From a bacterium (GTDB taxonomy: Bacteria > Patescibacteriota > CPR2 > UBA1875 > CAIMLA01): a stretch of 64,000 nt of DNA. How positions within the stretch are numbered: position 1 is the first letter of the stretch; each line of letters starts with the position of its first letter. The notes below the pieces were generated by a model, which was given only the letters and a program-made list of their open reading frames with translations, was not told the DNA's origin and did no database searches. Location: assembly GCA_037129835.1 (NCBI GenBank), contig JBAXUE010000002.1:66334-130333 (forward strand). The letters run 5' to 3'. The position numbers and the translations under genes were made by a program. Below are positions 31,135 through 61,437 of this stretch, one piece after another.

Positions 31135-33018
31135 TTATCTTAGCCTATAGTTTGCCTTTTTAAGGCTATCTTTAAAATAGTAAACAAATCTACACTTTCC
31201 TGCCTCGTTTCTGATCAACATAATATGGTGCTTTGCATTGGGAAAAGCGACCATTTCTGTACCACCAAAAACACCCCTACTTCTGTATAAAAAGTCCTTA
31301 TATTCAAGGTCATCTGTTTTTGAAACCATTCTTATTGGATGGAATGCTATGTCCTTGTCTGCAGTCATTCCACTGTATACAATAAAATTAATTAGAAATA
31401 GAGGCACCACACTGCCACCGTAAAGCCGGTTAACTTCTTTTAGCTTTTGGATATTACTTATTCCTTTTTTACTAATAATATCTGAAAAAATGCTAGCGTA
31501 ATCAAACATAGGAAAATACATTTCGTTTTTGTCAGTTAATATATTCTTCTTGTCGATACTAGAACTAGAGGCGGGCTTAACTCTTTGGCTTGAAATCCAA
31601 ACTGGTGCTGCACCCTCGTCATTGCTTTTTAATGATTTTAAAGATAAATCATGAAAAATAAAACAACGGTGCCAGTCCTCGAAAAGTGATTTTGGTATTG
31701 AGAGTTCAAAGAAGTCTTTGTATTTGCCTCTACTGCCGAACATTCTAGCTCTTTGGATATAAGTGTCTTGTTGAATCCTGTGTTTAGCAGTTCGTGTGAA
31801 GAACATGCCCAAAAGATTCTTTATTGTTAAGCCCCGGGAAATTATATTTCCACCAATTATTATTGTAAAAAGAGCTGGTGCATTAGTTGGGTCTTCTTCC
31901 ATTTTATTATTTGAGTTAATAACATAAACTTTTTTCTTATTAACATAATCTTTGACAAATGTTGTCACTTCTTTTGCTGCTATATCACCAAATCTTTCTT
32001 CTGCAATACTGTGTATTATTCCAAGGTAACGTTCCCATTTGGGACCCTTATTTGTATCTGCCAGTGCGTCAAAAAAATTATCTACAATTTTTTTATCTCT
32101 TTCGTGTTCACTTTTAATGCCACTTGTATGAATAATAAAAGCAAAATTAACATCATCATTATTCGCATTTTGTTCTACGAGCTTTTCCTTGTACTCGGGA
32201 TTTATATTTAAATAAGAAGCATTAACTAAAAAGCTTGCTAAAGCTTCATGTAAATATGATGGGTCATCTCCATTCTCAGGAAGTATATTCACCATGTATT
32301 CAACTTCGGTTATTTTTTCTAGATTAATTGGAAAAAAAAAGTCTTTGCCTACATAATTTTTATGAGAATCAAAAAATACCCATTCTTCAGATAAATTATC
32401 AAAAGTATTGTTAAGATCTAGTCGTGCTGGAGTGGCTGTTACCCCAACGTAGGTGCCGTCTCTTCGAAGTAATTTGCCGATTTCGTTATTAATTGCCGTT
32501 ACTTCATCTTTATTTATTTTAGAATTTGGGCTGGCATAATCAGCCTCGTCATCAATTATTATTAAACCACTTCTATTTCTTAGTTTTTCGTTTAAATTTG
32601 TTAAATTGCGGATATTTTTCTTTGAAAAAATTATAACCTGCCCATCATTTAAGTCTTCTTCAAGAAAAGCCCTGCTAGACATGGTATCTGGTGTAGGGTC
32701 GATACCTGAACTAGTAAATCTTTCGAGATTTTGAAGTTCAAGCTTTTTATTGTCATTCATGAGAATAACAATAGTGTTGTTGCCAATATCAAGTAATTTT
32801 GCTGTAAGCGATATCATCATTTCGGTTTTGCCACTTTGTGGCTCACCGTAAATCACAAATGATGTTATACCCTTTTGAATTTTTTCTACTGAATCTGAAA
32901 CAGCGTTTTCAATTTGAAAAGTATCAATACCCTTTTTATCTCTAAGGAAATTAATTCTTTTCTCATATCGGCTGTTTCTTCTATTTTCTGAGTCTCTATA
33001 ATCATCTGGATTAAACAT
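31135..33018 (-). CDS. Z1-domain SF2 helicase-like ATPase (restriction-system-associated)
   Basis: Motif I GEPQSGKT, motif II IIDDEADYAS, motif III GVTATP, motif V FTIIIGGNIISRGLTI, motif VI QQDTYIQRARMFGSRG (Z1-type QxxRxFGYR). Confidence 0.55.
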   Translation of the reverse strand: MFNPDDYRDSENRRNSRYEKRINFLRDKKGIDTFQIENAVSDSVEKIQKGITSFVIYGEPQSGKTEMMISLTAKLLDIGNNTIVILMNDNKKLELQNLERFTSSGIDPTPDTMSSRAFLEEDLNDGQVIIFSKKNIRNLTNLNEKLRNRSGLIIIDDEADYASPNSKINKDEVTAINNEIGKLLRRDGTYVGVTATPARLDLNNTFDNLSEEWVFFDSHKNYVGKDFFFPINLEKITEVEYMVNILPENGDDPSYLHEALASFLVNASYLNINPEYKEKLVEQNANNDDVNFAFIIHTSGIKSEHERDKKIVDNFFDALADTNKGPKWERYLGIIHSIAEERFGDIAAKEVTTFVKDYVNKKKVYVINSNNKMEEDPTNAPALFTIIIGGNIISRGLTIKNLLGMFFTRTAKHRIQQDTYIQRARMFGSRGKYKDFFELSIPKSLFEDWHRCFIFHDLSLKSLKSNDEGAAPVWISSQRVKPASSSSIDKKNILTDKNEMYFPMFDYASIFSDIISKKGISNIQKLKEVNRLYGGSVVPLFLINFIVYSGMTADKDIAFHPIRMVSKTDDLEYKDFLYRSRGVFGGTEMVAFPNAKHHIMLIRNEAGKCRFVYYFKDSLKKANYRLR

Positions 33019-33109
33019 AGCTCTCCAAATTTAATATATATTATATTCTACTCTCCTTTTGTGCTTATCGCAAGCATAAATTCGGTTTGACGGCTCTAGG
33101 CATCGGATA

Positions 33110-33137
33110 TTGACAACTAAAATACGCGGAGTATAAT
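33110..33137 (+). promoter_or_regulatory. Consensus sigma70-type promoter TTGACA-16-TATAAT on the plus strand, inside a GC-rich intergenic block
   Basis: ttgacaactaaaatacgcggagtataat read directly; every flanking gene is minus-strand. Confidence 0.4.
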
Positions 33138-33241
33138 TATTCATGAAGAGAGCAGTAATGCCTATGTAACGCCGAGTGGAGGCACCTCGATAGAGGGCCC
33201 GTGAAGCGAGGAGCACGAGTATATAGGTCACCTCTTCTTTT

Positions 33242-33877
33242 TTATAGCTTATTTTCTAAATATATTAAATTAACTTTTTTACCTAGTTTAGTCAGAGTTT
33301 TTTTATTTCCATACAGGTGACTATGAATAATTCCACATATCTGATCTGCTATTTGTAGATTTGCTTCTTCTGACGTGCCAAAATCAATACGAAAGTCCGA
33401 CTCTGGGTACTCTAGTTTTAGTTCGGTCTCGATAGTTCTTGATAAACCTTCTTTATTAATTAATTTTGTTTTAAAACTATCTAAAGTCACTATAGTCACC
33501 TTTTCACGTTTAAATGTTTTGCTAGATTCAAGCAAAACCTTCTTTACAAGGTTGATGTACAACCTGTCATAGACAAGCTTACTTTTGTAATAATATTTCT
33601 GAGACAGCAGATTCTTGCTCTGAGAAGCAGCGAATACTGTAATCTCAGGTGCTGGACACTCAGGACTAAAGATATATGGCAATATATACAAGTCTGATAA
33701 AGCATTTGAGCTCTTTATTTCACCTTTCGGATAACTGGCAGGTAGTGCCTTCCTCTTAACCTTCTTATACCATTTCGCCGTCTCACCCGGATTTGCAGTG
33801 CTAAAACCGGCCACAGCCATAAACTGATTTTTTGTGCCCTTTTCTAAGTTAAAAGTTTCGTCGATATAGATAAACAT
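33242..33877 (-). CDS. DUF3800-family protein
   Basis: N-terminus MFIYIDETFN matches the DUF3800 hallmark (I-Y-I-D-E-S/T); about 210 aa. Confidence 0.5.
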   Translation of the reverse strand: MFIYIDETFNLEKGTKNQFMAVAGFSTANPGETAKWYKKVKRKALPASYPKGEIKSSNALSDLYILPYIFSPECPAPEITVFAASQSKNLLSQKYYYKSKLVYDRLYINLVKKVLLESSKTFKREKVTIVTLDSFKTKLINKEGLSRTIETELKLEYPESDFRIDFGTSEEANLQIADQICGIIHSHLYGNKKTLTKLGKKVNLIYLENKL

Positions 33878-33941
33878 ACTTATATTTTACCCTTGCCATA
33901 GGATAAAACTAGTAGACAAGTTGAAACAGCACGCTAGCCTA

Positions 33942-34823
33942 CTATTTCAAATCACGTAATTCCTCTATCACTCCGACTTTATTAAGAATGGGTATCATTT
34001 CGGAGCTACCTTCATAATTACTATAGTAGAAAGTTCCACCGATTTCGTACCATCTTTTAAATGGTTTCCCTTTCTCTGGAGTGAACAAAAAATGTGTCCA
34101 AAGTCTGTAGTCTAGCATGTCGATGTGATTTGTCTCGACATGTAGAAATGAGTGCGGCTTCAACACGCCTAGTGAGTTCTCTGCTATCCCCATCGGTGCT
34201 GGCGGGTCATCATCTTGAGGTATATTACCCCCTACAATATCCTCGACACTGGTATAGTGATTACTTGAATCATTTATAATATAGGCGTCATAGAAGCCAG
34301 ACTCTTTTTCGTCAAAGACGATTGCAATGTAGAGTCCCTTGTTATGTTTTCTGATTTTGTCCCACTCTTTCTGTTCTTCTATCTCTGGACATATCATCTT
34401 GGCACTGCATTTAGGGCATGGATGACTAGCTGGCCAGATGTGATACTTTTCGTCATGACAATATGGGCATAGATTCACTAGAGACTGAAAGTATTTCTCT
34501 GGATCCCACGGCACATCCCAAGCCTTGGTAGTGACTTCTACTAATATCTTTCTTCTATCACAGACACAAGTCCGCGTTTCCTGATCGGCACAGCGGCCAA
34601 AACCAGCAATAGTCTTTTTTTGATAATTACACTTTGTGCATTTGTATAACTTGTGTGTCATATTTGCAATATACGCTCGTTTTGTGCCTGGGGCAAGACC
34701 CAGGAGGTCATCCTTACGAAAGTAAGGATGACCTCCGGAGGGTAAGAAAGAGATCCCTGGGTTTGTGACCAGGGATGACAACGGGTGTTCCCACGAAAAA
34801 TAACTCAGTCCGCAGACCGACAC
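33942..34823 (-). CDS. Cys-rich zinc-finger protein (true start probably Met at 34661; upstream part is repeat-derived)
   Basis: Multiple CxxC pairs (CTKCNY...CADQ, CPYCHDEK, CPKCSAK); first 54 codons overlap a GC-rich hairpin repeat. Confidence 0.4.
   Translation of the reverse strand: MSVCGLSYFSWEHPLSSLVTNPGISFLPSGGHPYFRKDDLLGLAPGTKRAYIANMTHKLYKCTKCNYQKKTIAGFGRCADQETRTCVCDRRKILVEVTTKAWDVPWDPEKYFQSLVNLCPYCHDEKYHIWPASHPCPKCSAKMICPEIEEQKEWDKIRKHNKGLYIAIVFDEKESGFYDAYIINDSSNHYTSVEDIVGGNIPQDDDPPAPMGIAENSLGVLKPHSFLHVETNHIDMLDYRLWTHFLFTPEKGKPFKRWYEIGGTFYYSNYEGSSEMIPILNKVGVIEELRDLK
34738..34790. repeat. GC-rich hairpin repeat (inverted copy of the 21276-21310 unit plus partial unit)
   Basis: Reverse complement tgtcatccctggtcacaaacccagggatctc. 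Confidence 0.7.
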
Positions 34824-34976
34824 TTTGAGAAATATGTATGCTGTAGCTCGGCTACTAAAAGTATTTTTAAAAGAGAGTTGTTATTTTTCTTGAACTTAAC
34901 TCCATTTTCTTTCAAGAGAAAATGGATAATAAATAATTAATAAATTTTTAGTTAGAATAAATTGGTATATTGCGAA

Positions 34977-35546
34977 TTAATGTCCGCCGTAGACAGTGAA
35001 GCCTTTTTGTTTTAGCTCTTCGGCGAGCTTTATCTCGGCCTTTTTTGCTTCTTCTCTATTTTCTATCTTTCCTATCTTGCCGTAGAGGTCTGGGCGGAGC
35101 TTTGGATTGTCTGCCTTTCGGACCTTTACTGATGAGTTCAGCCCTGCCATGTGTTGCTCCAGTCGTATTTCTGGATCATAGATACTTTGCCCGATATATA
35201 TTTTCTTCTCGTTGTTATCTAGTTCGATAGCATATACTTGCCAAAAATCATTCTGGACCATGGGTCCAGCGATAACCATATATTTTTTTGCTTCGAGAGC
35301 GACGATAACCGCTTTTGCGGCCTCTATCGCCTCTTCGGCAGTATCATACTCTGGTAATTCTTTTGTCCATTTGGTCAGATTAGCGGGGTGACGTTCTTTG
35401 CGAACGCTAGTCACAAACTTTTCAAAGGCTTGCTGGTGATTGCTCGTGCCATATCCGACAAATACTTTTTTCTTACCTTGGTCTATTTCAAATACGTTTA
35501 CTATGTATTTATTATCTTCCATTTTTTTGGTCTCCTGTAGCGTCAT
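34977..35546 (-). CDS. Hypothetical protein with C-terminal GIY-YIG nuclease-like motif
   Basis: VYAIELDNNEKKIYIGQS...RLEQH fits GIY-(x10)-YIG...R...E/QH. Confidence 0.4.
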   Translation of the reverse strand: MTLQETKKMEDNKYIVNVFEIDQGKKKVFVGYGTSNHQQAFEKFVTSVRKERHPANLTKWTKELPEYDTAEEAIEAAKAVIVALEAKKYMVIAGPMVQNDFWQVYAIELDNNEKKIYIGQSIYDPEIRLEQHMAGLNSSVKVRKADNPKLRPDLYGKIGKIENREEAKKAEIKLAEELKQKGFTVYGGH

Positions 35547-51268: not shown

Positions 51269-53377
51269 TTAGTTGAATTTAACTTCTGCGACCTTTGAGA
51301 TATCGCTAAGTTTATGACCCTGAATCATCGAATCCGAAATTGTGTACAAAATGTCACCAATATATAAAATTCTAGATATTGTACTGTTGGCTGCATAGTC
51401 GTAAGAATAATTATTTTTTGAGTTTTCGTTAGTTGTTTTGTGTGTGATGCGATCGCGGAACTGGAATCCTTTTTCTAAGTCCACTTTGTAAACATAGGCT
51501 CCTTGGAAAGTATCCGTACCATATGTATTTGCCTCTGCCCCAGTACTCGCCTTTTGTTCTGGTGTTAGCTCGGCAAGAGATATTGGTAACGATAATAGGC
51601 TTTTTGCTTTATCAAACAGAAACGCCTTTGGGTCTGTAAGGACTGGTGAATCAGTCCCTCGGTCACCTATTACCGTCTTGAACATTTCTTTTGGATTGGT
51701 AACATCTGTAACATCAAATATAGCCATCTTTACGCCCTGGTACCAAGCGAAGTCCAAATTTCTGCTTTCGATCGCTTCGGTGGAGGCGTCGATAGCTTCT
51801 TTTCCGATGCCGATAATGTGGTTTTCGTCATATGGATGTAAATAGTCAGAGTATCCCGGTATCTTTAGGTATCCAAGAACAGCGGGTTTCTCGGGATCCT
51901 TAAGGTCAATAACATAAAAAGGATCTACTTTTTTGAAAGTGACAAGGTACCCTCTATCTCCCATAAATCTGGCGGAATATATCTCTTCTCCTGGCGCAAG
52001 ATCTTCTAGGGCGCCAACTTGTTTCATGTCACCATTAAAAACATAAATATTATTTGTCGATTTATTGACTGTATCAGTAATACTTCCCTTGGTAGCGGCT
52101 ACTCTAAAAAATCCATTGCTCTCGTCCATAGAATATTGATTAAGCGCACTACCCTCTATCGAAGCCGAACTAAGATATTCAGAATTGTTACCTACTAGTT
52201 TAAATTTGTGGAACTGTGTTTTTGAGACAGTGTTCCTGGTATAGTTTGTATAAATTGGTTGTTCAAGACTGGCAAGATACAGGTTTTGGCTGGATGCATA
52301 TACAATGTCTGAATTTCCGATAATTGTCCGTCTATTGATTTCCTTGGTTTCGTCTTTGATCGATAGACTCACAACACTTACAAAGGTGTTATTGGTCTTA
52401 TCTTCTATATTATTAACGTTTTTGAAATATTCCACATCGGCACAGCCACAAGTGGGTTTATAAACTGCTTTGGCAGAACCTTGAACATCAGAATATTTAG
52501 GAAGTAGAGATAGGGCATCTGTTTGGGGTGTAATGACATTATAATTTGGATATGTATTAAGAACTAAGTGAACATTGTCACCAATCATTCTGCCAGCACT
52601 ATAATTACCTTCATACTCAACACTTCTAGTGAGTTTTGGGTTTGTCTTATTGCTAGTATCCCAGATTTTGATAAAAGTATAGGTGGTAGAGGGATTATAG
52701 GGTTTTGTAAACCTTTCGATAATACTATTATTTGTAGAGGTCTCTTTTGTAACTGTTTTATTGCCGATGGCTAATAACCTATTTTTCGCGATAAATAATT
52801 GACTAACATTTCCATAATCGCTACCCGTATATTCTTCAGGCATTATAGAGGAAGGGCTAGCATCGGTATTGTTACTTTCTACTACCTTGATTGTTTTTAC
52901 AAGTTTGGCATCTTCGGCGGGATAAGCTTTAACGATGTCAATGTTACCTTGCCTGACAGTATAGATATATTCACCATCATTCTTAACAGTATCAGCTTCG
53001 TCAACTCCCTCAACTTGCACATTCGTTTTAGAATAATCACTACTACCTCCTGTAGTATCTGCGGTAGTGGCTTCACCGGCCTCTATACTCATGCCAAGCG
53101 GGGCATTAACGCCTATGTTTTTTGTTTGTACATCTCTTGCGAGCATTTTAGTAATATCTCCGCAGGATTTTGCAGTTCCAATGTACGTATTATTAACTTT
53201 GATAGCGCTTTTCGATGTATTTCTTACGCGATAATACCAGCCCAAGGCGATAATTGAAAATAAGAATATAATTGCTATAGATCCAAAGAAAATTTTCATA
53301 AAGACAGGGCTTTTGTAAAAATTATTTTTTATAGAGTCCTTTTTTGTTATATCCATATCATCTCCTTTAATATACAT
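51269..53377 (-). CDS. Membrane-anchored large extracellular protein (possible beta-propeller-type)
   Basis: N-terminal TM anchor, 650-aa Ser/Thr/Asn-rich ectodomain; family uncertain. Confidence 0.4.
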   Translation of the reverse strand: MYIKGDDMDITKKDSIKNNFYKSPVFMKIFFGSIAIIFLFSIIALGWYYRVRNTSKSAIKVNNTYIGTAKSCGDITKMLARDVQTKNIGVNAPLGMSIEAGEATTADTTGGSSDYSKTNVQVEGVDEADTVKNDGEYIYTVRQGNIDIVKAYPAEDAKLVKTIKVVESNNTDASPSSIMPEEYTGSDYGNVSQLFIAKNRLLAIGNKTVTKETSTNNSIIERFTKPYNPSTTYTFIKIWDTSNKTNPKLTRSVEYEGNYSAGRMIGDNVHLVLNTYPNYNVITPQTDALSLLPKYSDVQGSAKAVYKPTCGCADVEYFKNVNNIEDKTNNTFVSVVSLSIKDETKEINRRTIIGNSDIVYASSQNLYLASLEQPIYTNYTRNTVSKTQFHKFKLVGNNSEYLSSASIEGSALNQYSMDESNGFFRVAATKGSITDTVNKSTNNIYVFNGDMKQVGALEDLAPGEEIYSARFMGDRGYLVTFKKVDPFYVIDLKDPEKPAVLGYLKIPGYSDYLHPYDENHIIGIGKEAIDASTEAIESRNLDFAWYQGVKMAIFDVTDVTNPKEMFKTVIGDRGTDSPVLTDPKAFLFDKAKSLLSLPISLAELTPEQKASTGAEANTYGTDTFQGAYVYKVDLEKGFQFRDRITHKTTNENSKNNYSYDYAANSTISRILYIGDILYTISDSMIQGHKLSDISKVAEVKFN

Positions 53378-54126: not shown

Positions 54127-56289
54127 TTATACATTTTTATGTGGATTATGATTAGGACAATCTTTGCTAGAACAACGCTCTGGGATAGTTTTGGTCCCTT
54201 CCATCATCAGAGAGCCGCATTCTTTACATATATTACCTGTCGGTTTCGCTTTAATAGCGTATTTGCATTTTGGATAATTGTTACAAGAATAGAATATTCC
54301 GAAACGACCTTTTCTTTCAGCCATTTCACCTTTTTTGCAGACTGGGCACTTTACGCCAGTACCATTATCGATTACAGCCGTTTCGTCTTTTCTGATATAT
54401 TTGCATTTCGGATAATTTGAACAAGAAATGAATTTGCCGTATTTTCCCTCACGTTCAATAAGATCTCCGCCACATTCGGGGCAGGGTTCACCGATTGGTT
54501 TCGGCCCTTCCATCTCTTCGCCTTCCATAGTAAGTGCACCCTGGCATTCTGGATACTTGGAGCAACTAAGAAATTTACCGTTCTTCCCAAGCTTTATTAT
54601 CATACTACTTTTGCATTTTGGGCATTTGAATTTTGGATCCGCAGGTTCTGGTTTTACTGGTTCTTTGAGCTCTGTTTTTACTTTTTTGATAAATGGACCA
54701 TAAAATTCTGACAGTATTTGGACATACTTGGCTTTTCCGTTAGCTATAAGGTCAAGTTCATCTTCCATTTCAGCAGTAAAGGTGTCGCTGATGTATTCGG
54801 CAAAATATTTTTCAAGAAAGGTACTAACAACATCGCCGGTATCTGTAGGAATGAGTGTTCGACCCTCTTTTGTAACATAGCCACGATCTTCTAGTGTTTT
54901 CATAATGGAAGCATAAGTACTAGGTCTGCCGATACCTCTTTTCTCTAATTCCTTAATCAGGCCAGCTTCCGTGTATCTGGTTGGAGGTTCGGTCTGTTTG
55001 GCAGTAGTAACAAAATCTATCAGTGTTAGCTCGTCACCGATATTAACTTTTGGTAGGTTGACTTCTTCGCCTGCCACTGCCGGATCAGCTGAAAGCCAGC
55101 CGGCGAATAGTTGATGACTACCATTGGCTGTAAATAAAGGAAATTTGTTGTCATCGTAATACTTGGCAGTTATCTTGCTTCGAAGAAGTTTGGCATCAGC
55201 CATCTGACTTGCCACTGTTCTGCCCCATATCAGCTTGTAGAGTTTCTTTTGTTCGTCATTGTGACCAGCATTGTCATGTTCAAAATTTGTGGGACGGATT
55301 GCCTCATGAGCTTCCTGGGCATTTTTACTCGTAGTTTTGTATTTATGAGGGGATAAATATTCTTTGCCGTACTTACTCGTCACCACTTGGTTTATTTGTT
55401 CTAGCGCTGTCTCTGAAAGATTAGTACTATCGGTACGCATATAACTGATTAAACCTGCTTCATATAGTTTCTGTGCTACTCCCATGGTTCGTGATGGCGA
55501 GAATCCTAGTCTAGTGCTCGCTGTCTGCTGTAGTGTAGATGTAGTAAATGGTGGTTTTGGTGCTCTTTTTGCTTCTGTACTTGTGACATTGGCAACTATC
55601 CATTGTCCATTTTTGGCAACGGTTTCTATTTCGGTTAATCGTTCTATATTTTTTGGCTCTTCGGTACAGGTAAGCGAAAGATTATCTTTGCCCAGAGTCT
55701 TTGTTTCGGCAACTAGTGTCCAAAAATCTTCACTGACAAAAGCTCGTCTTTCTCTTTCTCTTTCCATAATAATTCTAAGTGCAGGAGATTGTACTCGGCC
55801 TGCAGATAGACCATATCGAACCTTTTTCCAGATGACTCCAGAAAGGTCATAGCCAACAAGACGGTCTAGGACACGCCTAGCCTGTTGTGCATCTACTAAG
55901 TCAATATTTATCTTGCGTGGATTATTGGCGGCATGTTCAACTGCGCTTTTGGTGATTTCATGAAATTCAATCCTGTCATAATCGCTTTCTTTTAGCTTCA
56001 ACGCTTGGGCCAAGTGCCACGAAATTGCTTCACCTTCACGATCAGGATCAGTCGCCAGTAGTACTTGGTCGGCTTTCACTGCTACCGCTCGTAGATCACT
56101 GATAATTTTTTTACCACGGGGAGTAATAATGTATTTTGGTTTAAACCCGTGTTCGATATCTACGGCGTCTTTATTGCTTTTTGGTAGATCTCGCACATGT
56201 CCAAAAGAAGCCATTACTTTGTGGCCTGGACCTAAATATTTTTCTATTGTCTTCCCTTTTGCGGGAGACTCTACAATTACAAGTTTCAT
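54127..56289 (-). CDS. topA: DNA topoisomerase I with C-terminal zinc-ribbon repeats
   Basis: TOPRIM N-terminus (MKLVIVESPAK), Topo IA core, three to four C4 zinc ribbons (CPKCKS..., CPECGG..., CPVCKKG...). Confidence 0.9.
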   Translation of the reverse strand: MKLVIVESPAKGKTIEKYLGPGHKVMASFGHVRDLPKSNKDAVDIEHGFKPKYIITPRGKKIISDLRAVAVKADQVLLATDPDREGEAISWHLAQALKLKESDYDRIEFHEITKSAVEHAANNPRKINIDLVDAQQARRVLDRLVGYDLSGVIWKKVRYGLSAGRVQSPALRIIMERERERRAFVSEDFWTLVAETKTLGKDNLSLTCTEEPKNIERLTEIETVAKNGQWIVANVTSTEAKRAPKPPFTTSTLQQTASTRLGFSPSRTMGVAQKLYEAGLISYMRTDSTNLSETALEQINQVVTSKYGKEYLSPHKYKTTSKNAQEAHEAIRPTNFEHDNAGHNDEQKKLYKLIWGRTVASQMADAKLLRSKITAKYYDDNKFPLFTANGSHQLFAGWLSADPAVAGEEVNLPKVNIGDELTLIDFVTTAKQTEPPTRYTEAGLIKELEKRGIGRPSTYASIMKTLEDRGYVTKEGRTLIPTDTGDVVSTFLEKYFAEYISDTFTAEMEDELDLIANGKAKYVQILSEFYGPFIKKVKTELKEPVKPEPADPKFKCPKCKSSMIIKLGKNGKFLSCSKYPECQGALTMEGEEMEGPKPIGEPCPECGGDLIEREGKYGKFISCSNYPKCKYIRKDETAVIDNGTGVKCPVCKKGEMAERKGRFGIFYSCNNYPKCKYAIKAKPTGNICKECGSLMMEGTKTIPERCSSKDCPNHNPHKNV

Positions 56290-56358
56290 AACTAAGTGTT
56301 AATGTTATTTTAATTAGTGCTATGTGTCAATCTTTTCCATTCATGGCTGCCGGTAAAG

Positions 56359-56931
56359 CTATTCTTTGTTTAGCCATGGAAACATTTTGACGAGCTCTAT
56401 GTTTCTTTCGTCATTTTTTTCTAACGAGGCAAGGTTAAATAGTTTTTCTTTGCCAAATTCGGACATGATCAAATTGACCATAGTTATACCCACTTGATAT
56501 TTATCACCGTTTTGGGTGTAGCTAAGTTTATTCAGTAACTGTATATTTATATCTTCTTGGGTCCAAGTACTACTTTGGCCAGCAACGTATCCGCAGACAC
56601 CTTCTATTAACCATCCTGGCGTATGCTTATTGCTGACAGGGCGTAAATATTTATGAACCAGTTCGTGTTTTAAAACTTTCTGAAATCTGATGTGACCTGG
56701 ATCCTTTTGCGGGGGCATTCCATTTGGACCAATAATGTAAATATGGTTTTGGGGAGAAAAGCCAACGAGGTAGTCTGGGGCTGGGATATCATCATTTCTG
56801 TTTTTGTCATAAAAAGTAATAATATCTTTTTGACTATCAAACAAAACAACGTCTATATCTTTTAGTGGTTTGGTGCCGAAAAAGTCTGCCACTTCCTGAT
56901 TGTACCTTTGGGCTAGATCGTTTGTATCCAT
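56359..56931 (-). CDS. Peptidase_MA_2-like zinc metalloprotease-fold protein (HExxH), paralogue of 20616-21254
   Basis: LKHELVHKY...WLIEGVCGYVAGQ. Confidence 0.5.
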   Translation of the reverse strand: MDTNDLAQRYNQEVADFFGTKPLKDIDVVLFDSQKDIITFYDKNRNDDIPAPDYLVGFSPQNHIYIIGPNGMPPQKDPGHIRFQKVLKHELVHKYLRPVSNKHTPGWLIEGVCGYVAGQSSTWTQEDINIQLLNKLSYTQNGDKYQVGITMVNLIMSEFGKEKLFNLASLEKNDERNIELVKMFPWLNKE

Positions 56932-56949
56932 ATTATCTCCTTAAATATT

Positions 56950-58095
56950 TTAATTGATTCTATATACCATACCACCAATATGCTTAATTTTGCCAGATAT
57001 TTCCATAATGGTTATAGCAGAGCTTATTTCACTTTGGGAGAGCCCGGCTTTTTTTGAAATCTCGTCAATGTGTTTTGGTTCTAGTCTTAGCACTTCGATA
57101 ATTGTTTTTTCTGTTTTATTGCTACCAACTGCTTGGCGCATCTCGGAAACTACTTCAGGGCAAGAAAACCCAAATTCATCATAGACGTCTTGAACACTGG
57201 TAAGGACATGAGCTCCAGATTTGATCAGGTTGTTTGTTCCAATACTGGCTAAACTAAATATATTTCCAGGAACGGCAAAAACTTCTCTGTTCTGGTTCAG
57301 TGCCGAAAGCGCAGTGATGAGGCTTCCAGAGCTCTCTGCTGCTTCGGTAACGATGAGACCCTGAGATATACCGCTAATGATTCGGTTTCTGGCTGGGAAG
57401 TTTTGTTTTAATGGAGGAGTGTCGAATGGATATTCAGAGATTATTGCTCCGTTACCGATGATTTCGCGAGATAATCTAAAGTTGCTGCTCGGATAGATCT
57501 GATTCAGGCCGCAGCCGATAACCGCAATAGTCTGCCCACCGCCAGATAGGGCTCCTTTGTGAGCGGCAGTATCGATGCCAATTGCTAGCCCACTAACGAC
57601 TGTCACACCTCCCATGGCAAGTTCGCTGGTAATCTTTTCTGTGACGCGGAGGCCATAGTCAGAGGGTCTTCTACTGCCTACTACGCCGATACATAACTGA
57701 TTTAGCTTGGCTGTGCCCTTTTTGTATAGAATAAATGGAGGATCGTAAATCTGTTTCAACAGTTCGGGGTAGTCATTTTCAAAAATAAAGACAGGCTCTA
57801 TATTATTTTGTTTAAGTTCGTGGAGAACGTTTTCTGGTTTGTAGTTCTCTTTTGAGAATATGAATTCTTTGAGACATCGCTTGCTTAGTTTGAGAGCTCT
57901 TAGCTTGCTATCGGGTAGCTCGAACAAATTATTTATGGGAGCGTCTAAGGCGAAAACCTCAAGAAACAGAGAGGCAGTGAATCGAGCATTTCTACCTAGT
58001 GTAAGCCAATATATGTAGTCTTCAATATTCTTTTCCACAACCCCTCCAAAAAACACTTGACAAAAGTAGCCAACAGTGCTAGAATAAATAGTCAA
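56950..58095 (-). CDS. dprA: DNA processing protein DprA (Smf)
   Basis: Rossmann-like DprA core GVVGSRRPSDYG...VVSGLAIGIDTAAHKGAL...; C-terminal wHTH; next to topA as is common. Confidence 0.8.
   Translation of the reverse strand: MTIYSSTVGYFCQVFFGGVVEKNIEDYIYWLTLGRNARFTASLFLEVFALDAPINNLFELPDSKLRALKLSKRCLKEFIFSKENYKPENVLHELKQNNIEPVFIFENDYPELLKQIYDPPFILYKKGTAKLNQLCIGVVGSRRPSDYGLRVTEKITSELAMGGVTVVSGLAIGIDTAAHKGALSGGGQTIAVIGCGLNQIYPSSNFRLSREIIGNGAIISEYPFDTPPLKQNFPARNRIISGISQGLIVTEAAESSGSLITALSALNQNREVFAVPGNIFSLASIGTNNLIKSGAHVLTSVQDVYDEFGFSCPEVVSEMRQAVGSNKTEKTIIEVLRLEPKHIDEISKKAGLSQSEISSAITIMEISGKIKHIGGMVYRIN
58057..58085 (+). promoter_or_regulatory. Consensus sigma70-type promoter TTGACA-17-TAGAAT on the plus strand
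   Basis: cacTTGACAaaagtagccaacagtgcTAGAATaaat read directly; overlaps the first codons of dprA on the opposite strand. Confidence 0.45.
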
Positions 58096-58341
58096 CCTAA
58101 ATCAGGATGACATTTGACAATAAGTTTCTCTAGGTAAACGCCAGTTATGGCGAGTGTCCTATCAATGAGTAAGGCCTTAAACACCCTCCTTTAAGCTTAC
58201 TTGTTGGTAGGGTTCTCCCCGTAACCGCCAGCCAATATTTTGGGCTAGGTAAAGTCTTCGGATCGAGTTACACTAACGGGAGAACTTTGAAACAAAAGTA
58301 AGGGAGTCGTATTTATACGGCTCCCTTACTTTATTATATTT
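58093..58341 (+). ncRNA. Candidate sRNA of about 250 nt between the promoter at 58057 and a strong terminator (stem aagtaagggag/ctcccttactt + T-run)
   Basis: No ORF; long-range complementarity (gttctcccgt / acgggagaac); 11-bp terminator stem 58296-58331 followed by TATTATATTT; RNA family not recognised. Confidence 0.35.
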
Positions 58342-58375
58342 AAGTGTTTATGACTAGTGGACAAGGAAAAATTAA

Positions 58376-59344
58376 CTATTCTTTAACTATTTTCACAACA
58401 TTAATTTTCGGGGTTACTTTTACCACTACAGGTTGCTTTATTTTTGGTAGGCTCACATCACTTCCCTCTCGCACTTCAGCTGTGGCAAAGATGTTATTAG
58501 ATTCTTTCGGTAATACTCTCTCTCGGATAAACGCCAGTCTTTCTGGGTCTAAAGAGTCAGGATCTACAATTGCTGCTACCATACTGTCACAAAAATCTTC
58601 AGCAGCAGAATGGATTGCATATTCGCTGATACACCTTGATGGATCTTTGGGTTTAAAATACAAAGTAAGGCCACCAGGTGTTGTTATGCCTTCTGGGACG
58701 TGTTCCCAGCCAAAATCTTTCTGCCATTTATCTAGTTGTTTAGAGGCCAAACTGTGAGAAAGCTCATGAATTAATGTCCCTTCAAAGTTTGATGTAGCCG
58801 ATATTCGGTGTTGTTTGTCTTCTAACGCAGGAGGATAAAGCTTAATTGCACCTTCGCCTGTTTCTGCGTAACCATTTAGTGGCTCATTAGTGTATTTATT
58901 AATCTCGTTTTTGTCATCAATTAGAATATATTTAACGGTATTAAGAGCTTCGCCACCTAAGATATTAGAGAATTTCTCTAATATGGATTTTAGCTGAAAT
59001 ATTCTCTTGTCTTCTATTTTTTGACTAAAACTGTATAATTCAAGGCTGTACTCACCTACTTTAATCGATACTTGTTGTTCTGGTATGCCTTTTTCTCTCC
59101 ACTTATCCTGTAACCACCAATTATTACTAATAATTTCTTCTTTTGCTTTTTCTTCAATATTTTCTTGAGAAACTGTAATATCTGCCACTCGATCACTACC
59201 ATCTTCTAGAAATTCAAATTTAATGTCGTTTATTTTTTCATACTCTCGATCTTTCGGTAATTGGAATTCAGAAGCCTTGATATTAGAAATAATTTTGTGA
59301 CTTTCTTTTTTCATTTCTTGAAAATCTACTAGTTGTTTTTCCAT
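58376..59344 (-). CDS. Hypothetical protein with HExxH motif (LIHELSHSL)
   Basis: ORF; possible zincin-like. Confidence 0.35.
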   Translation of the reverse strand: MEKQLVDFQEMKKESHKIISNIKASEFQLPKDREYEKINDIKFEFLEDGSDRVADITVSQENIEEKAKEEIISNNWWLQDKWREKGIPEQQVSIKVGEYSLELYSFSQKIEDKRIFQLKSILEKFSNILGGEALNTVKYILIDDKNEINKYTNEPLNGYAETGEGAIKLYPPALEDKQHRISATSNFEGTLIHELSHSLASKQLDKWQKDFGWEHVPEGITTPGGLTLYFKPKDPSRCISEYAIHSAAEDFCDSMVAAIVDPDSLDPERLAFIRERVLPKESNNIFATAEVREGSDVSLPKIKQPVVVKVTPKINVVKIVKE

Positions 59345-59383
59345 ATAAACCCTTAATCTTTTACTATTGCTGGATACTGTTAT

Positions 59384-59938
59384 TTAAATACTAATATGCT
59401 CTATGCCTTCTGCGAGGGCTTTTTCTATTTCTGACACTGTTTTTGTGACAACTTCTTGTGCAAGGGCCTCTTCATCTTTAGTAAATTTCTGTAACACAAA
59501 AGCTTCTGTGGGTATATTATCACATTCTTTTGTTTTGATTCCCATTCGAAACCTGGCAAATTCATCAGTGCCGATACACTCTATGATAGATTTAACACCT
59601 TTGTGTCCCGCAGAGCTACCACCTTGTCTGACTCTGACTACACCAAGCTCGAGATCGATATCGTCATAAGCGACCCAGAGATGTTCAGTATTAATATTAA
59701 AATAACTCATTACAGATTGTATAGCTTCTCCAGATAGGTTCATAAAAGTCTGAGGTTTAAGAAGTTTGATCTTTTCGCCACTTACTATTATTTCGCAGAT
59801 CTCAGCCTTGAACTTTTTCTCAAGCTTAAAATCACCGTCATATTTATCTGCTAGGTTATCAACCGTAGCGAAGCCGAAATTATGGCGTGTGCCGATATAT
59901 TCTTTTCCCGGATTACCAAGTCCAACGATTAGTTTCAT
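59384..59938 (-). CDS. pth: Peptidyl-tRNA hydrolase
   Basis: MKLIVGLGNPGKEY...TRHNFGF N-terminal signature. Confidence 0.9.
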   Translation of the reverse strand: MKLIVGLGNPGKEYIGTRHNFGFATVDNLADKYDGDFKLEKKFKAEICEIIVSGEKIKLLKPQTFMNLSGEAIQSVMSYFNINTEHLWVAYDDIDLELGVVRVRQGGSSAGHKGVKSIIECIGTDEFARFRMGIKTKECDNIPTEAFVLQKFTKDEEALAQEVVTKTVSEIEKALAEGIEHISI

Positions 59939-60036
59939 GGTTTATGTACTTTCCCCCGTCATGCTGAATTTATTTCAGTATCCCGAGATCCTGAATCGAG
60001 TTCAGGAAGACGCAAAGAGGTGTGCGACGAGTGTAG

Positions 60037-61437
60037 TTATTTTTTCTTTTTACTTTTCTTATTATACTCAGCATTTTTCTTTTTGAAAACCAGTCTTATG
60101 GCCGTACCTGAGAAATCCCAGTGGTCGCGAATTCGATTTTCGAGATATCTTTTGTAAGAAAAGTGAATATGTTCTGGGTGACTTGAGAAGAAAATAAATG
60201 TCGGTGGATTGATATCGGCTTGAGTGATGTAGTTGATTTTGGGTAATACATTCTTCTTTGCTGGTGGTGATTTTTTCAAGATGTCCGCACCTATAAGTAG
60301 GTTTAGCTCGGATGTTGGGATTCGGCGGGCACGTGCTTCTGTTACTTCGAAGACTACATCGGGGATTTTCTCGATATTTTTACTTGTTTTTGCTGAAACG
60401 AATACAACTGGAGCAAAAGGTAGGAATGAAATCTTGTTATGAAGATAGGCAAGATAGTTTTGCATGTCGGTTTCGTCTTTATCAATTGCGTCCCATTTGT
60501 TAACAACTATTACAACACCTTTTGCTTGATCGGCGGCGAATCCTGCGATGTGTAGGTCTTGTGATGTAAGTCCTTCTGTTGGATCTATAAGTATTAGCAC
60601 GATATCAGCGTCTTCAACGGCACGGAATGAACGAAGGACTGAGTATTTCTCTATTTTACCTTCTTCATATTTGGTTCCTAGATCTCCAACTTTACCTCTT
60701 CTTCGGATTCCAGCAGTATCGATAAAGTTTATTTTTCCTCTTTCGTCTTCGAAACTCGAAATAGTAAAGTCTCTGGTGGTGCCAGCAATATCAGAGATAA
60801 TTGCTAGCTTTTTGCCGATGAGAGCATTGAAAAGGCTTGATTTGCCGACGTTCGGACGACCCGCAATAGCGACGTTTATTCCTTCTTCGTTGTCTATGAC
60901 CACTTTTCTTTGTGGTTCGATATCTTTTAGATTTGTGACAATACCGTCCATAAGATCGCCCATATTGCGGCCTGTGAGCGCAGATATCGGTGTTATTTCA
61001 CTTGCGCCAAGGCGGTGAAGCTCTGATAAATTTGAAAGATATTTTTCACTATCATATTTGTTGGCAGCAACAATAAACGGTTTTTTTGCTTTTTGTACCA
61101 TTCTAATGGCATTGTCATCGTCTTTAGTCGGTCCGACAGAGGCATCAACGATAAATACTATTAGATCTGCTTCATCGAGTGCTACTAATACCTGTTCTTT
61201 GACATCTTCATCGAGAACTGTGTAAGCAGTTCCTTCTGATTCTATTCCTGCGGTATCAACTAATATAAATTCGGTACTATTCCAGGTTGTCCTTGCATAT
61301 AGACGGTCTCTAGTCGTTCCAGCCCAGTCGGCAGTAACTGCTTGTTGTTTTCCTAAGATACGATTAAAAAGAGTCGATTTTCCGACATTCGGTCTGCCCA
61401 CAATGGCAATAACTGGGATATTAGCATTTTCTGACAT
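60037..61437 (-). CDS. der: GTPase Der (EngA), tandem GTP-binding domains + KH-like C-terminus
   Basis: Two G1 motifs (GRPNVGKSTLFN, GRPNVGKSSLFN), two DxxG motifs, C-terminal KH-like domain. Confidence 0.9.
   Translation of the reverse strand: MSENANIPVIAIVGRPNVGKSTLFNRILGKQQAVTADWAGTTRDRLYARTTWNSTEFILVDTAGIESEGTAYTVLDEDVKEQVLVALDEADLIVFIVDASVGPTKDDDNAIRMVQKAKKPFIVAANKYDSEKYLSNLSELHRLGASEITPISALTGRNMGDLMDGIVTNLKDIEPQRKVVIDNEEGINVAIAGRPNVGKSSLFNALIGKKLAIISDIAGTTRDFTISSFEDERGKINFIDTAGIRRRGKVGDLGTKYEEGKIEKYSVLRSFRAVEDADIVLILIDPTEGLTSQDLHIAGFAADQAKGVVIVVNKWDAIDKDETDMQNYLAYLHNKISFLPFAPVVFVSAKTSKNIEKIPDVVFEVTEARARRIPTSELNLLIGADILKKSPPAKKNVLPKINYITQADINPPTFIFFSSHPEHIHFSYKRYLENRIRDHWDFSGTAIRLVFKKKNAEYNKKSKKKK

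What the first reader, a model, noticed from the sequence alone, without database searches (positions are those of the whole stretch)
58057..58341. Candidate sRNA of about 250 nt with consensus promoter and strong terminator, antisense to the dprA start
A plus-strand TTGACA-17-TAGAAT promoter (58057-58085) is followed by an ORF-free segment with long-range complementary stretches. An 11-bp terminator stem with a T-run sits at 58296-58341. All surrounding genes are on the minus strand. The promoter overlaps the 5' end of dprA, so the transcript could also regulate dprA in cis.
Basis: seen in the sequence. Interest (0 to 1): 0.55.

Follow-up and report, generated by a model that had tools for sequence, protein, structure and literature searches.

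The report
New structured small RNA beside dprA
The flagged segment is very likely a real, previously uncatalogued small structured RNA gene that sits head-to-head with the DNA-uptake gene dprA in one lineage of the tiny-celled Patescibacteria; its function is still unknown.

Summary
A unique consensus promoter (TTGACA-17-TAGAAT with an extended TG, 58057-58085) is followed by about 250 ORF-free, strongly structured bases. These end in a 17-bp hairpin terminator (58295-58332).

The segment matches no Rfam 15 family. It is conserved immediately upstream of dprA, in divergent orientation, in every relative examined (DprA 45-67% identical). It was also dprA-adjacent in all 13 hits of a metagenome DNA-pattern scan that made no use of dprA.

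The core is more conserved than the neighbouring proteins. Helices show compensatory changes. G.U pairs (125, against 6 A.C) place the RNA on the + strand.

An 8-nt apical loop, CACCCUCC, resembles the anti-Shine-Dalgarno sequence and is invariant. A central strand can pair with either of two partners, and both pairings covary, which suggests a two-state fold.

More distant Patescibacteria carry differently built RNAs at the same position with the same kind of C-rich loop.

The promoter therefore lies 19 nt upstream of the coding sequence, and the RNA is divergent from it, not antisense to it.

Mechanism is inferred only. The RNA probably acts as a regulator through the C-rich loop, and its promoter probably competes with dprA transcription.

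The parts
58057..58085 (+). Sigma-70-type promoter: -35 TTGACA (58057-62), extended TG (58077-78), -10 TAGAAT (58080-85)
   Evidence: The hexamers, the TG and the 17-nt spacing are invariant or nearly so in all family members, while the spacer sequence varies.
58091..58340 (+). Predicted sRNA transcript (about 250 nt). The start is inferred from the -10 box and the end from the terminator.
   Evidence: Conserved in 24 or more loci. There is no direct expression evidence.
58091..58111 (+). P0, a 5' hairpin. It is variable and is absent or replaced in the divergent subgroup.
58113..58124 (+). Conserved single-stranded motif UUUGACAAUAAG
   Evidence: A similar UUGA(A/C)A..UAAG motif occurs in L098 and in the type B RNAs.
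58122..58130 (+). Segment A (AAGUUUCUC). It can pair with segment D to close a four-way junction.
   Evidence: The pairing covaries in L098 (AAUUUCUC with GGGAGAAAUU).
58144..58154 (+). Segment B (GUUAUGGCGAG), the 5' strand of helix P1 (state 1). It pairs with segment X.
58156..58213 (+). P2, a long hairpin with three conserved G.U pairs. The apical 6-bp stem carries the invariant 8-nt loop CACCCUCC (58182-58189).
   Evidence: The lower stem covaries completely in L098 while the loop is kept.
58212..58225 (+). Segment X (GUUCUCCCCGUAAC), the shared strand that pairs with B (state 1) or with D (state 2)
58227..58250 (+). P3 hairpin. The base (G.U, C-G, C-G, bulged A) is invariant, the upper stem covaries and the loop varies in length.
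   Evidence: 100% of cells paired, 3 pairs with changes on both sides.
58254..58263 (+). P4, a short hairpin with a UUCG loop
58267..58285 (+). Segment D (GUUAC...GGGAGAAC). It pairs with X (state 2, closing a three-way junction with P3 and P4) or with A (state 1).
58286..58293 (+). Invariant UUUGAAAC linker before the terminator
58295..58341 (+). Intrinsic terminator: 17-bp stem, 4-nt loop, interrupted U tail. It is also usable on the - strand (tail UUUUGUUUC).
   Evidence: The stem covaries (8 or more pairs with changes on both sides). 24 G.U cells against 1 A.C cell.
58353..58364 (.). Conserved 12-nt motif just beyond the terminator (ACTAGTGGACAA on +, TTGTCCACTAGT on -). Function unknown.
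56950..58038 (-). dprA, with its probable start at GTG 58038 and its Shine-Dalgarno sequence GGAGG at 58047-58043. It is the invariant head-to-head neighbour of the RNA gene.

Best explanation
What it is (shown). The segment is a genuine, independently transcribed, structured small RNA gene of about 250 nt (start about 58091, intrinsic terminator 58295-58341). It is a member of an RNA family that matches nothing in Rfam. The family occurs in one lineage of Patescibacteria and always lies head-to-head with the dprA(-topA) operon. The features shown are the gene anatomy, the conservation, the strand, the secondary-structure elements and the fixed linkage to dprA.

How it works (inferred). The RNA acts as a regulator through the invariant C-rich loop CACCCUCC at the tip of the long hairpin P2. 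This loop has the sequence logic of the 16S rRNA anti-Shine-Dalgarno tail. I therefore expect it to pair with G-rich or Shine-Dalgarno-like sequences of mRNAs and block ribosome binding. An alternative is that a factor which recognises that sequence binds the loop.

Two states. A central strand (X) can pair either with an upstream strand (B) or with a downstream strand (D). Pairing with B lengthens P2 into a four-way junction. Pairing with D closes a three-way junction with P3 and P4. Both pairings are kept by compensatory changes, so the RNA probably toggles between two folds that modulate its activity.

Cis effect. The consensus promoter lies 19 nt from the dprA start codon. Its occupancy probably also competes with dprA transcription.
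For: Gene anatomy: a unique consensus extended -10 promoter, an ORF-free body and a terminator.

Structure: folding z = -6.7 on the + strand.

Conservation:
- The element is present, divergent and adjacent to dprA in all relatives fetched through DprA homologues of 45-67% identity.
- It is also present in 13 of 13 hits of a metagenome DNA-pattern scan that did not use dprA. Every hit with enough flanking sequence has dprA next door.
- In L083 the pth gene has moved, but the RNA stays with dprA.
- The promoter hexamers are invariant with a variable spacer. The RNA core is near-invariant while the DprA proteins differ by 35-55%.

Base pairing:
- 92.5% (state 1) and 94.4% (state 2) of cells are paired, against 27-50% in slid controls. 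There are 11 and 10 pairs with changes on both sides.
- P1 alone and the X:D helices alone each beat their controls.
- Every sequence can form both pairings, and the two states lie within 0.5-10 kcal/mol of each other.

Strand: 125 G.U cells against 6 A.C cells in the core, and 24 against 1 in the terminator.

Loop: CACCCUCC is invariant in all 22 aligned sequences and is kept in L098, where the stem below it has completely covaried.

Analogues: differently built RNAs with consensus promoters, the same position relative to dprA and C-rich CC(C)CUCCU loops occur in other Patescibacteria (L113, L008/L009/L039, L003/L004/L020).

From my own knowledge: C-rich anti-Shine-Dalgarno loops are the working seed of Gram-positive sRNAs such as csRNAs, RsaE/RoxS and RNAIII.
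Against: There is no expression evidence of any kind.

No specific target was found. Beyond the generic 6-nt GGAGGG, the loop has no extended complementarity to the dprA ribosome-binding site. dprA lacks a Shine-Dalgarno sequence in several relatives that keep the loop (L095, L097 and types B and C). The only extended match in the window lies inside an ORF.

Near-invariance of the whole P2 stem, including its G.U pairs, is more typical of a protein- or RNA-bound scaffold than of a simple seed-carrying sRNA.

The two-state model rests on few independent substitution events (about 3-5 lineages).

The + strand terminator tail is a weak U-run in this window.
Confidence: 0.45

Rival explanations
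1. The RNA is a protein-binding or ribonucleoprotein scaffold RNA, not a base-pairing regulator. In this view the C-rich loop and the sequence-invariant P2 stem are a recognition site for a protein. One example is a mimic of the 16S rRNA 3' end that titrates a KH-domain or other anti-Shine-Dalgarno-binding factor. The junction domain would provide tertiary structure.
For: The whole P2 stem and its tandem G.U pairs are invariant across relatives whose DprA is 50-67% identical. The junction nucleotides of P3 and P4 are invariant while the peripheral stems covary. The consensus promoter implies high abundance. The loop resembles CACCUCCUUU of the 16S 3' end; the Era KH domain binds that sequence (both from my own knowledge).
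Against: No partner has been identified. No known RNP RNA family matches. The more distant analogues (types B, C and D) keep the loop but not the stem sequence. That pattern fits a seed at least as well as it fits a protein site.
Confidence: 0.2
2. The functional unit is cis-acting. The strong promoter, by occlusion, competition or supercoiling, or a 5'-overlapping antisense transcript, represses or tunes the dprA-topA operon. The RNA product has no function in trans.
For: The RNA gene is linked head-to-head to dprA in all loci. The -35 box lies 19 nt from the dprA start here. In L004 (type C) it overlaps the dprA ATG, and there the near-palindromic extended -10 gives a -10-like element on both strands. 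No separate sigma-70 promoter for dprA is recognisable, so any dprA 5' UTR must cross the sRNA promoter.
Against: A DNA-level or transcription-only role does not explain several observations: compensatory base-pair changes, a G.U to A.C ratio of 125:6, an invariant hairpin loop 90 nt downstream of the start, or a dedicated terminator. In type B loci the promoter is 49-182 nt from dprA.
Confidence: 0.15
3. The RNA is a ligand-sensing, riboswitch-like sRNA. The three-way junction (X:D, P3, P4) is an aptamer. Occupancy of the aptamer decides whether strand X is released from B, switching the RNA between active and inactive forms.
For: There are two mutually exclusive helices, both covarying. The junction nucleotides are invariant, with covarying stems and a P3 loop of variable length. 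The two states are close in energy.
Against: No known aptamer class matches. There is no downstream ORF and no terminator/antiterminator coupling: the terminator stem does not compete with either state (sequence inspection). Types B, C and D lack this domain.
Confidence: 0.1
4. The conserved structure belongs to the - strand as a 5' leader of dprA, or the segment is fortuitous intergenic sequence with a chance promoter and a terminator that serves only the upstream - strand gene.
For: The hairpin at 58295-58332 has a good U tail on the - strand. The - strand also folds better than shuffled sequence (z = -3.8).
Against: On the - strand the 125 G.U cells become A.C mismatches. The promoter hexamers and spacing are conserved on the + strand. 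In the divergent subgroups the terminator has a U tail only in the RNA sense. Conservation is far above that of the flanking genes.
Confidence: 0.04

Closest known systems
C-rich, anti-Shine-Dalgarno-seed sRNAs of Gram-positive bacteria: streptococcal cia-dependent csRNAs, RsaE/RoxS and RNAIII loops (from my own knowledge)
   Same: Each is a stand-alone gene with its own promoter and intrinsic terminator. Each presents an unpaired C-rich motif (CCUCC or CCCC) in a hairpin loop, complementary to ribosome-binding sites. csRNAs regulate a competence gene (comC), and this RNA is tied to a competence gene (dprA).
   Different: There is no sequence or covariance-model similarity (Rfam negative). This RNA is two to three times longer and has a multi-helix junction domain and an apparent two-state fold. 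Its stems are sequence-invariant. No target has been identified.
Legionella RocR, with the RocC chaperone: an sRNA that silences competence genes (Attaiech et al. 2016, from my own knowledge; PMC6744872 was listed but I did not read it)
   Same: Both are small RNAs dedicated to the DNA-uptake and processing regulon.
   Different: RocR is short, depends on a FinO-domain chaperone, and is not encoded next to dprA. There is no homology.
sRNA genes transcribed divergently from a functionally linked gene: oxyS/oxyR, gcvB/gcvA, sgrS/sgrR (from my own knowledge)
   Same: The layout is a conserved, compact, head-to-head arrangement with shared or abutting promoter regions.
   Different: In those pairs the neighbour is the transcription factor that controls the sRNA. 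DprA is not known as a DNA-binding regulator of transcription.
Lineage-restricted orphan structured RNAs found by comparative genomics, such as the raiA motif (often near comFC), Bacteroidales-1 and Chlorobi-1 (Weinberg et al. 2010 and 2017: PMC2864571 and PMC5737381, listed but not read; the content is from my own knowledge)
   Same: They are about 100-250 nt long, have their own promoter and terminator, show strong covariation, have no known function and are restricted to one clade.
   Different: None of these families matches. This RNA comes from Patescibacteria, has a fixed dprA linkage and carries an anti-Shine-Dalgarno-like loop.
Riboswitch-controlled sRNAs such as EutX/Rli55 (from my own knowledge)
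   Same: Both are non-coding transcripts whose activity depends on alternative folds.
   Different: There the switch controls a terminator. Here the terminator appears constitutive, and no ligand or aptamer class is known.

Membership tests
Any described RNA family (Rfam 15, 4227 models, including 6S, SRP, RNase P, tmRNA, raiA, RsaE, csRNA and all riboswitches) | A covariance-model match at or near the family's gathering score | tested here: not met
   There is no hit at E<=1 in 56000-60500 and none at gathering score in the whole window. With only the 266-nt segment searched at E<=10, the only hits are spurious miRNA or terminator-like matches below 16 bits. Relatives and analogues are also negative.
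6S RNA | A rod-like fold: a closing stem formed by the 5' and 3' ends, a large central bubble and a terminal hairpin | tested here: not met
   The consensus structure is a long hairpin plus a three- or four-way junction, with no central bubble.
6S RNA | Binds the RNA polymerase holoenzyme and templates pRNA | not testable with these tools
   This needs biochemistry.
SRP RNA (4.5S / scRNA) | Domain IV: a GNRA-capped helix 8 with conserved symmetric and asymmetric loops | tested here: not met
   No match to RF00169 or RF01854 even at E<=10. The only tetraloop hairpin (P4, UUCG) lacks the flanking loop motifs.
tRNA / tmRNA | A tRNA-like fold detected by ARAGORN | tested here: not met
   No genes were found in the window.
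Trans-encoded base-pairing sRNA with a C-rich anti-Shine-Dalgarno seed (csRNA / RsaE type) | An independent gene with its own promoter, an intrinsic terminator and no ORF | tested here: met
   The feature is conserved in relatives.
Trans-encoded base-pairing sRNA with a C-rich anti-Shine-Dalgarno seed (csRNA / RsaE type) | A conserved unpaired C-rich motif complementary to GGAGG, presented in a loop | tested here: met
   The CACCCUCC loop is invariant in 22 of 22 sequences and is retained as CC(C)CUCCU in the analogous RNAs.
Trans-encoded base-pairing sRNA with a C-rich anti-Shine-Dalgarno seed (csRNA / RsaE type) | Identifiable mRNA targets with conserved extended complementarity | tested here: inconclusive
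   Only the generic 6-nt match to the dprA Shine-Dalgarno sequence was found, and that match is not conserved in subgroups. No other site occurs in the 64 kb window. Whole genomes were not available.
Cis-encoded antisense RNA of dprA | The transcript overlaps the target transcript on the opposite strand | tested here: inconclusive
   There is no overlap with the dprA coding sequence, which starts at GTG 58038. Overlap with a dprA 5' UTR depends on an unmapped dprA transcription start. No clear dprA promoter was found.
Riboswitch | A conserved aptamer upstream of, and on the same strand as, a regulated ORF or expression platform | tested here: not met
   There is no downstream + strand gene here or in relatives, where the gene downstream is convergent. 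The terminator does not compete with either fold.
Riboswitch | Two mutually exclusive, evolutionarily maintained structures | tested here: met
   B:X and X:D both form in every sequence and both covary. The number of independent events is small.
Riboswitch | Specific ligand binding | not testable with these tools
   This needs in-line probing or ITC.

The most novel reading that the evidence does not exclude
The window RNA is one form of a widespread Patescibacteria ribo-regulator that mimics the 16S rRNA 3' end (the anti-Shine-Dalgarno sequence). In this reading it is a conformational sensor. Its junction domain binds a metabolite or protein and flips strand X between two conserved pairings. 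This controls whether the RNA sequesters Shine-Dalgarno-bearing mRNAs or an anti-Shine-Dalgarno-binding assembly factor. In that way it would couple the DNA-scavenging/recombination operon dprA-topA, or translation at large, to the cell's nucleotide or growth state.
Probability: 0.12. Interest if true: 0.85.

Novelty: new member of a known kind. Interest (0 to 1): 0.6.

Why it matters
Patescibacteria (the candidate phyla radiation) make up a large share of bacterial diversity and have tiny genomes. One transcriptome preprint states that its model strain has no validated small RNAs.

This RNA is abundant-looking and highly conserved. It is physically locked to dprA-topA, the operon that processes imported DNA in organisms thought to depend on scavenged nucleotides (from my own knowledge). 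It gives a concrete, testable handle on gene regulation in this group.

Two features raise it above a routine sRNA call:
- The invariant anti-Shine-Dalgarno-like loop is shared with differently built RNAs at the same locus in other classes, which points to a common and possibly ancient function.
- The apparently selected two-state fold would make this a useful model for RNA switches outside classical riboswitches.

If the RNA only tunes one operon in one clade, the impact is modest.

Tried and rejected
1. Known RNA families. Three Rfam scans of the window and one of the relatives found nothing meaningful. ARAGORN found nothing.

2. SRP RNA. I recalled that E. coli 4.5S RNA contains GGUUCUCCCGCAAC, close to strand X. 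The domain IV features and the covariance models do not match, so I treat this as coincidence.

3. Hidden small protein. The 9-codon ORF ATGAGTAAG...TAA inside P2 is not conserved in the divergent subgroup, and no Shine-Dalgarno sequence precedes it.

4. The loop as a specific anti-dprA-RBS seed. Complementarity is limited to GGAGGG. dprA lacks a Shine-Dalgarno sequence in L095, L097 and types B and C.

5. An antiterminator coupled to the two-state fold. Neither state competes consistently with the terminator stem. Similarities between P2 and the terminator arms exist only in the main subgroup.

6. The internal TTGACAA pairing with the dprA 5' UTR. The apparent 10-bp match arises because there are two TTGACA motifs, and its flanks do not covary.

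7. A sigma-70 promoter for dprA inside or beyond the RNA gene. I found no conserved -35/-10 pair with proper spacing. The post-terminator TTGTCYACTWGT motif sits 15-20 nt from various A/T-rich -10-like hexamers.

8. The post-terminator motif as a regulon operator. Its only other exact copy in the window is upstream of a DUF3800 gene, which is not a competence gene.

9. Phage or mobile-element origin. The pattern has no hits in the viral contigs.

10. Homology of the analogous RNAs to this family. Model R1 with filters off gives only weak hits at the right place and strand (L020 16.8 bits, L004 14.8, L003 11.2, L008 10.8). A spurious hit scores higher (20.1 bits), so the relationship is suggestive and not demonstrated.

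None carries this family.

12. Literature. Three searches and two paper look-ups found no description of this RNA.
Full report
**1. The observation**

The promoter scan finds TTGACA-17-TAGAAT at 58057-58085 on the + strand. It matches 11 of 12 consensus positions and has a TG two bases before the -10 box. The pattern TTGACA-N14-TGNTANAAT occurs only once in the 64 kb window, with 0.00 expected by chance.

The hairpin at 58295-58332 has 17 pairs, 7 of them G-C, and a 4-nt loop. The tail on the + strand is AUUAUAUUU. On the - strand it is UUUUGUUUC, so in this organism the hairpin could also terminate the upstream - strand gene.

No + strand ORF of 30 aa or more lies between promoter and terminator. 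The 250-nt + strand RNA folds at -88 kcal/mol against -57 +/- 4.6 for shuffles (z = -6.7). The - strand is weaker (z = -3.8).

Pfam confirms the neighbours, all on the - strand: DprA (56950-58038), Pth (59384-59938), and TopA and Der from their translations.

**2. The dprA start**

The longest dprA ORF begins at TTG 58095 and would overlap the promoter. Homologues are 363-364 aa. A GGAGG lies at 58047-58043, followed by GTG at 58038. The same GGAGGG-NNN-GTG-GAA-AA is conserved in relatives.

The coding sequence therefore very probably starts at 58038, 19 nt from the -35 box. The RNA is divergent from dprA and is not antisense to its start.

**3. Not a known RNA**

Rfam 15 gives no match at E<=1 around the locus and nothing at gathering score in the window. 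When only the 266-nt segment is searched, the hits are spurious and below 16 bits. ARAGORN finds no tRNA or tmRNA.

**4. Conservation**

*GTDB scan.* DprA places the organism among the Patescibacteria. The best hits from the GTDB representative genomes are Daviesbacteria, Paceibacterota, Saccharibacteria and Berkelbacteria at 48% identity or less. None of those 80 loci contains the RNA, by nhmmer or by covariance model.

*Closer relatives.* A protein search found a graded series of closer DprA homologues (45-67% identity). Their contigs were fetched. Every one from 67% down to 45% (L081-L099, L115) has the element immediately upstream of dprA on the opposite strand. One locus at 47% (L113) does not.

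*Independent scan.* I scanned JGI metagenomes with a DNA pattern taken from the RNA (CACCCTCCTTTAAG-N8-30-TAGGRTTCTCC). This scan is independent of dprA. It gave 13 loci. In all that have enough flanking sequence, the dprA start is 1-12 nt from the aligned RNA-promoter region. The three without dprA are cut by a contig end.

*Other points.*
- In L083-L085 the pth gene has moved elsewhere, but the RNA stays with dprA.
- The viral collection gave no hit.
- In the four-sequence alignment the region is 86% identical, although the DprA proteins are 62-67% identical.
- Across 22 distinct sequences the stretch CCUAUCAAUGAG...ACACCCUCCUUUAAG...UUGGUAGGGUUCUCC...AACCGCC is essentially invariant.
- The -35 box, the TG and the -10 box are conserved with fixed spacing, while the spacer sequence varies freely. 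That is the signature of a working promoter.

**5. Structure and strand**

RNAalifold on the 22 sequences predicts these helices:
- P1
- a long hairpin P2 capped by a 6-bp stem and the 8-nt loop CACCCUCC
- P3
- P4, with a UUCG loop
- the terminator

Twenty pairs show changes on both sides.

On a 17-sequence core alignment, 92.5% of cells are paired, against 27-50% when partners are slid. Eleven pairs have changes on both sides, and 0 of 500 shuffles reach the observed covariation score.

In the most divergent member (L098), the 16-bp lower stem of P2 is completely replaced by a different complementary pair of strands, while the apical stem-loop is kept.

G.U pairs number 125 against 6 A.C in the core, and 24 against 1 in the terminator. 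The structure therefore exists on the + strand of the window, the strand of the promoter.

**6. Two competing pairings**

The 14-nt strand X (58212-58225, GUUCUCCCCGUAAC) can pair in two ways:
- State 1: X pairs with strand B (58144-58154), forming P1, which extends P2.
- State 2: X pairs with strand D (58267-58285), closing a three-way junction with P3 and P4.

Both duplexes form in every sequence. Where X changes (CUCCC to CUCCAG, CUCCAC or CUCCAA), both B and D change to match.

Counted separately:
- P1 has 82.9% of cells paired, against 32-65% in slid controls. It has 10 cells with changes on both sides, against 4.2 in shuffles (0 of 500).
- X:D has 92.1% paired, against 36-62%, and 5 such cells against 1.3 (1 of 500).

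Constrained folding puts the two states within 0.5-10 kcal/mol of each other, usually favouring state 1.

In the main subgroup and L098, strand D is satisfied in state 1 by a further strand A (58122-58130), giving a four-way junction. This A:D helix covaries in L098. In the divergent subgroup, strand A is missing and a 5' hairpin overlaps B.

I regard a selected two-state fold as likely but not proven. The substitutions come from only a few lineages.

**7. Analogous RNAs in other Patescibacteria**

Looking upstream of dprA in the more distant loci, I found three further designs. Each has a consensus TTGACA-17-TGnTAnnAT promoter divergent from dprA and a hairpin loop rich in CCUCC.

- *L113.* A 107-nt hairpin (z = -8.1) has the loop UUCCUCCUU and a U7 tail. 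A second element follows it, consisting of a closing stem plus a loop UCCCUCCU, and it lies in the leader of a 104-aa ORF.
- *L008, L009, L039 (Parcubacteria / Moranbacteria).* A 24-bp closing stem encloses a hairpin with the loop GACCCCUCCUUAA and a second hairpin. There are 10 compensatory pairs among three sequences.
- *L003, L004, L020 (Paceibacterota).* A closing stem encloses a hairpin with the loop ACCCCUCCUA and a second hairpin.

None of these matches Rfam. Model R1 with filters off hits the correct place and strand only weakly (11-17 bits), and a spurious hit scores higher. Common descent is therefore suggested but not shown.

In L004 the dprA ATG overlaps the sRNA -35 box. The near-palindromic extended -10 also puts a -10-like TATCAT on the dprA strand. 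This hints at mutually exclusive back-to-back promoters.

**8. What it most likely does**

*Shown:*
- an independent, conserved, structured RNA gene on the + strand
- an invariant C-rich loop
- obligatory linkage to dprA(-topA)

*Inferred:* the loop is the business end. Its sequence is that of the anti-Shine-Dalgarno tail with one extra C. In Gram-positive sRNAs such loops occlude ribosome-binding sites (from my own knowledge). The survival of the loop across otherwise different architectures argues that it matters more than any other part.

*Against a simple seed model:*
- no specific target emerged
- dprA itself is not a conserved target
- the invariance of the P2 stem suggests a bound partner

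A protein-binding or 16S-3'-end-mimic role is therefore a serious rival.

The promoter is so close to the dprA start that it must interfere with, or be coordinated with, dprA transcription. That cannot account for the RNA-level constraints.

*Confidence:*

| Claim | Estimate |
|---|---|
| It is a real sRNA gene | about 0.9 |
| It acts by Shine-Dalgarno-type pairing through the loop | about 0.3 |
| The two-state fold is functional | about 0.5 |

**9. Novelty and verdict**

The kind, a stand-alone structured bacterial sRNA, is familiar. The family is absent from Rfam 15, and my literature searches found no description of it. It comes from a group for which one transcriptome preprint states that its model strain has no validated small RNAs.

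Its sRNA interpretation is supported. Its 'antisense to the dprA start' reading is corrected to 'divergent, abutting the dprA translation start'.

Noticed in passing
window 58353-58364 (also 33908-33919, - strand): A 12-nt motif TTGTCYACTWGT (read on the - strand) lies 20-25 nt beyond the RNA terminator, right after the stop codon of the upstream gene. It is conserved in the main subgroup whatever that gene is. Its only other exact copy in the window (about 0.06 expected by my own estimate; the tool's shuffles covered only the scan allowing one mismatch) sits upstream of a DUF3800 gene. It may be a promoter or operator element, or it may be chance.
   Followed up: partly
L113:2079-2465 (- strand): In this more distant relative there are two consecutive promoter-led elements with CCUCC-type loops between dprA and pth. 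The first is a 107-nt hairpin ending in U7. The second is a closing stem with a loop UCCCUCCU, and it forms the leader of a 104-aa ORF of unknown function with a strong GAGGAGG ribosome-binding site. In that genome the element might therefore act in cis on a downstream gene.
   Followed up: partly
L004:3883-3912: The dprA ATG (3906-3908) overlaps the -35 box of the divergent RNA promoter. The extended -10 (TGATAACAT) is nearly palindromic, so the dprA strand carries TGTTATCAT. These may be mutually exclusive back-to-back promoters with a near-leaderless dprA.
   Followed up: partly
window 56359-56931 and 58376-59344 (- strand): Two ORFs with HExxH metalloprotease-like motifs (190 aa with a weak BSP-peptidase hit; 322 aa with no Pfam hit) lie between dprA and topA and between pth and the RNA. 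In relatives those gene pairs are directly adjacent, so these look like lineage-specific insertions. The two proteins are not detectably similar to each other.
   Followed up: partly
window 31135-35546 (- strand): This is a cluster of DUF3800, Z1-domain SWI2/SNF2-type helicase and GIY-YIG nuclease genes. It looks like a defence or mobile island.
   Followed up: no
window 3457-6453 (- strand): A 998-aa ORF has an N-terminal membrane-like segment, a Walker A motif (GKTGVGKS) and a long low-complexity Asn/Ser/Lys-rich tail. It was not characterised.
   Followed up: no
window 1-64000: There is no tRNA, tmRNA or Rfam family at gathering score anywhere in the 64 kb. Almost all genes near the locus are on the - strand.
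   Followed up: yes
window 51269-53377 (- strand): A 702-aa secreted-looking protein consists almost entirely of a PF09826 beta-propeller domain (E = 2e-154).
   Followed up: no
L107:4623-4934: In this metagenome contig, tblastn reported only residues 1-104 of DprA next to an intact copy of the RNA. This may be a frameshift, an assembly error or a truncated dprA.
   Followed up: no
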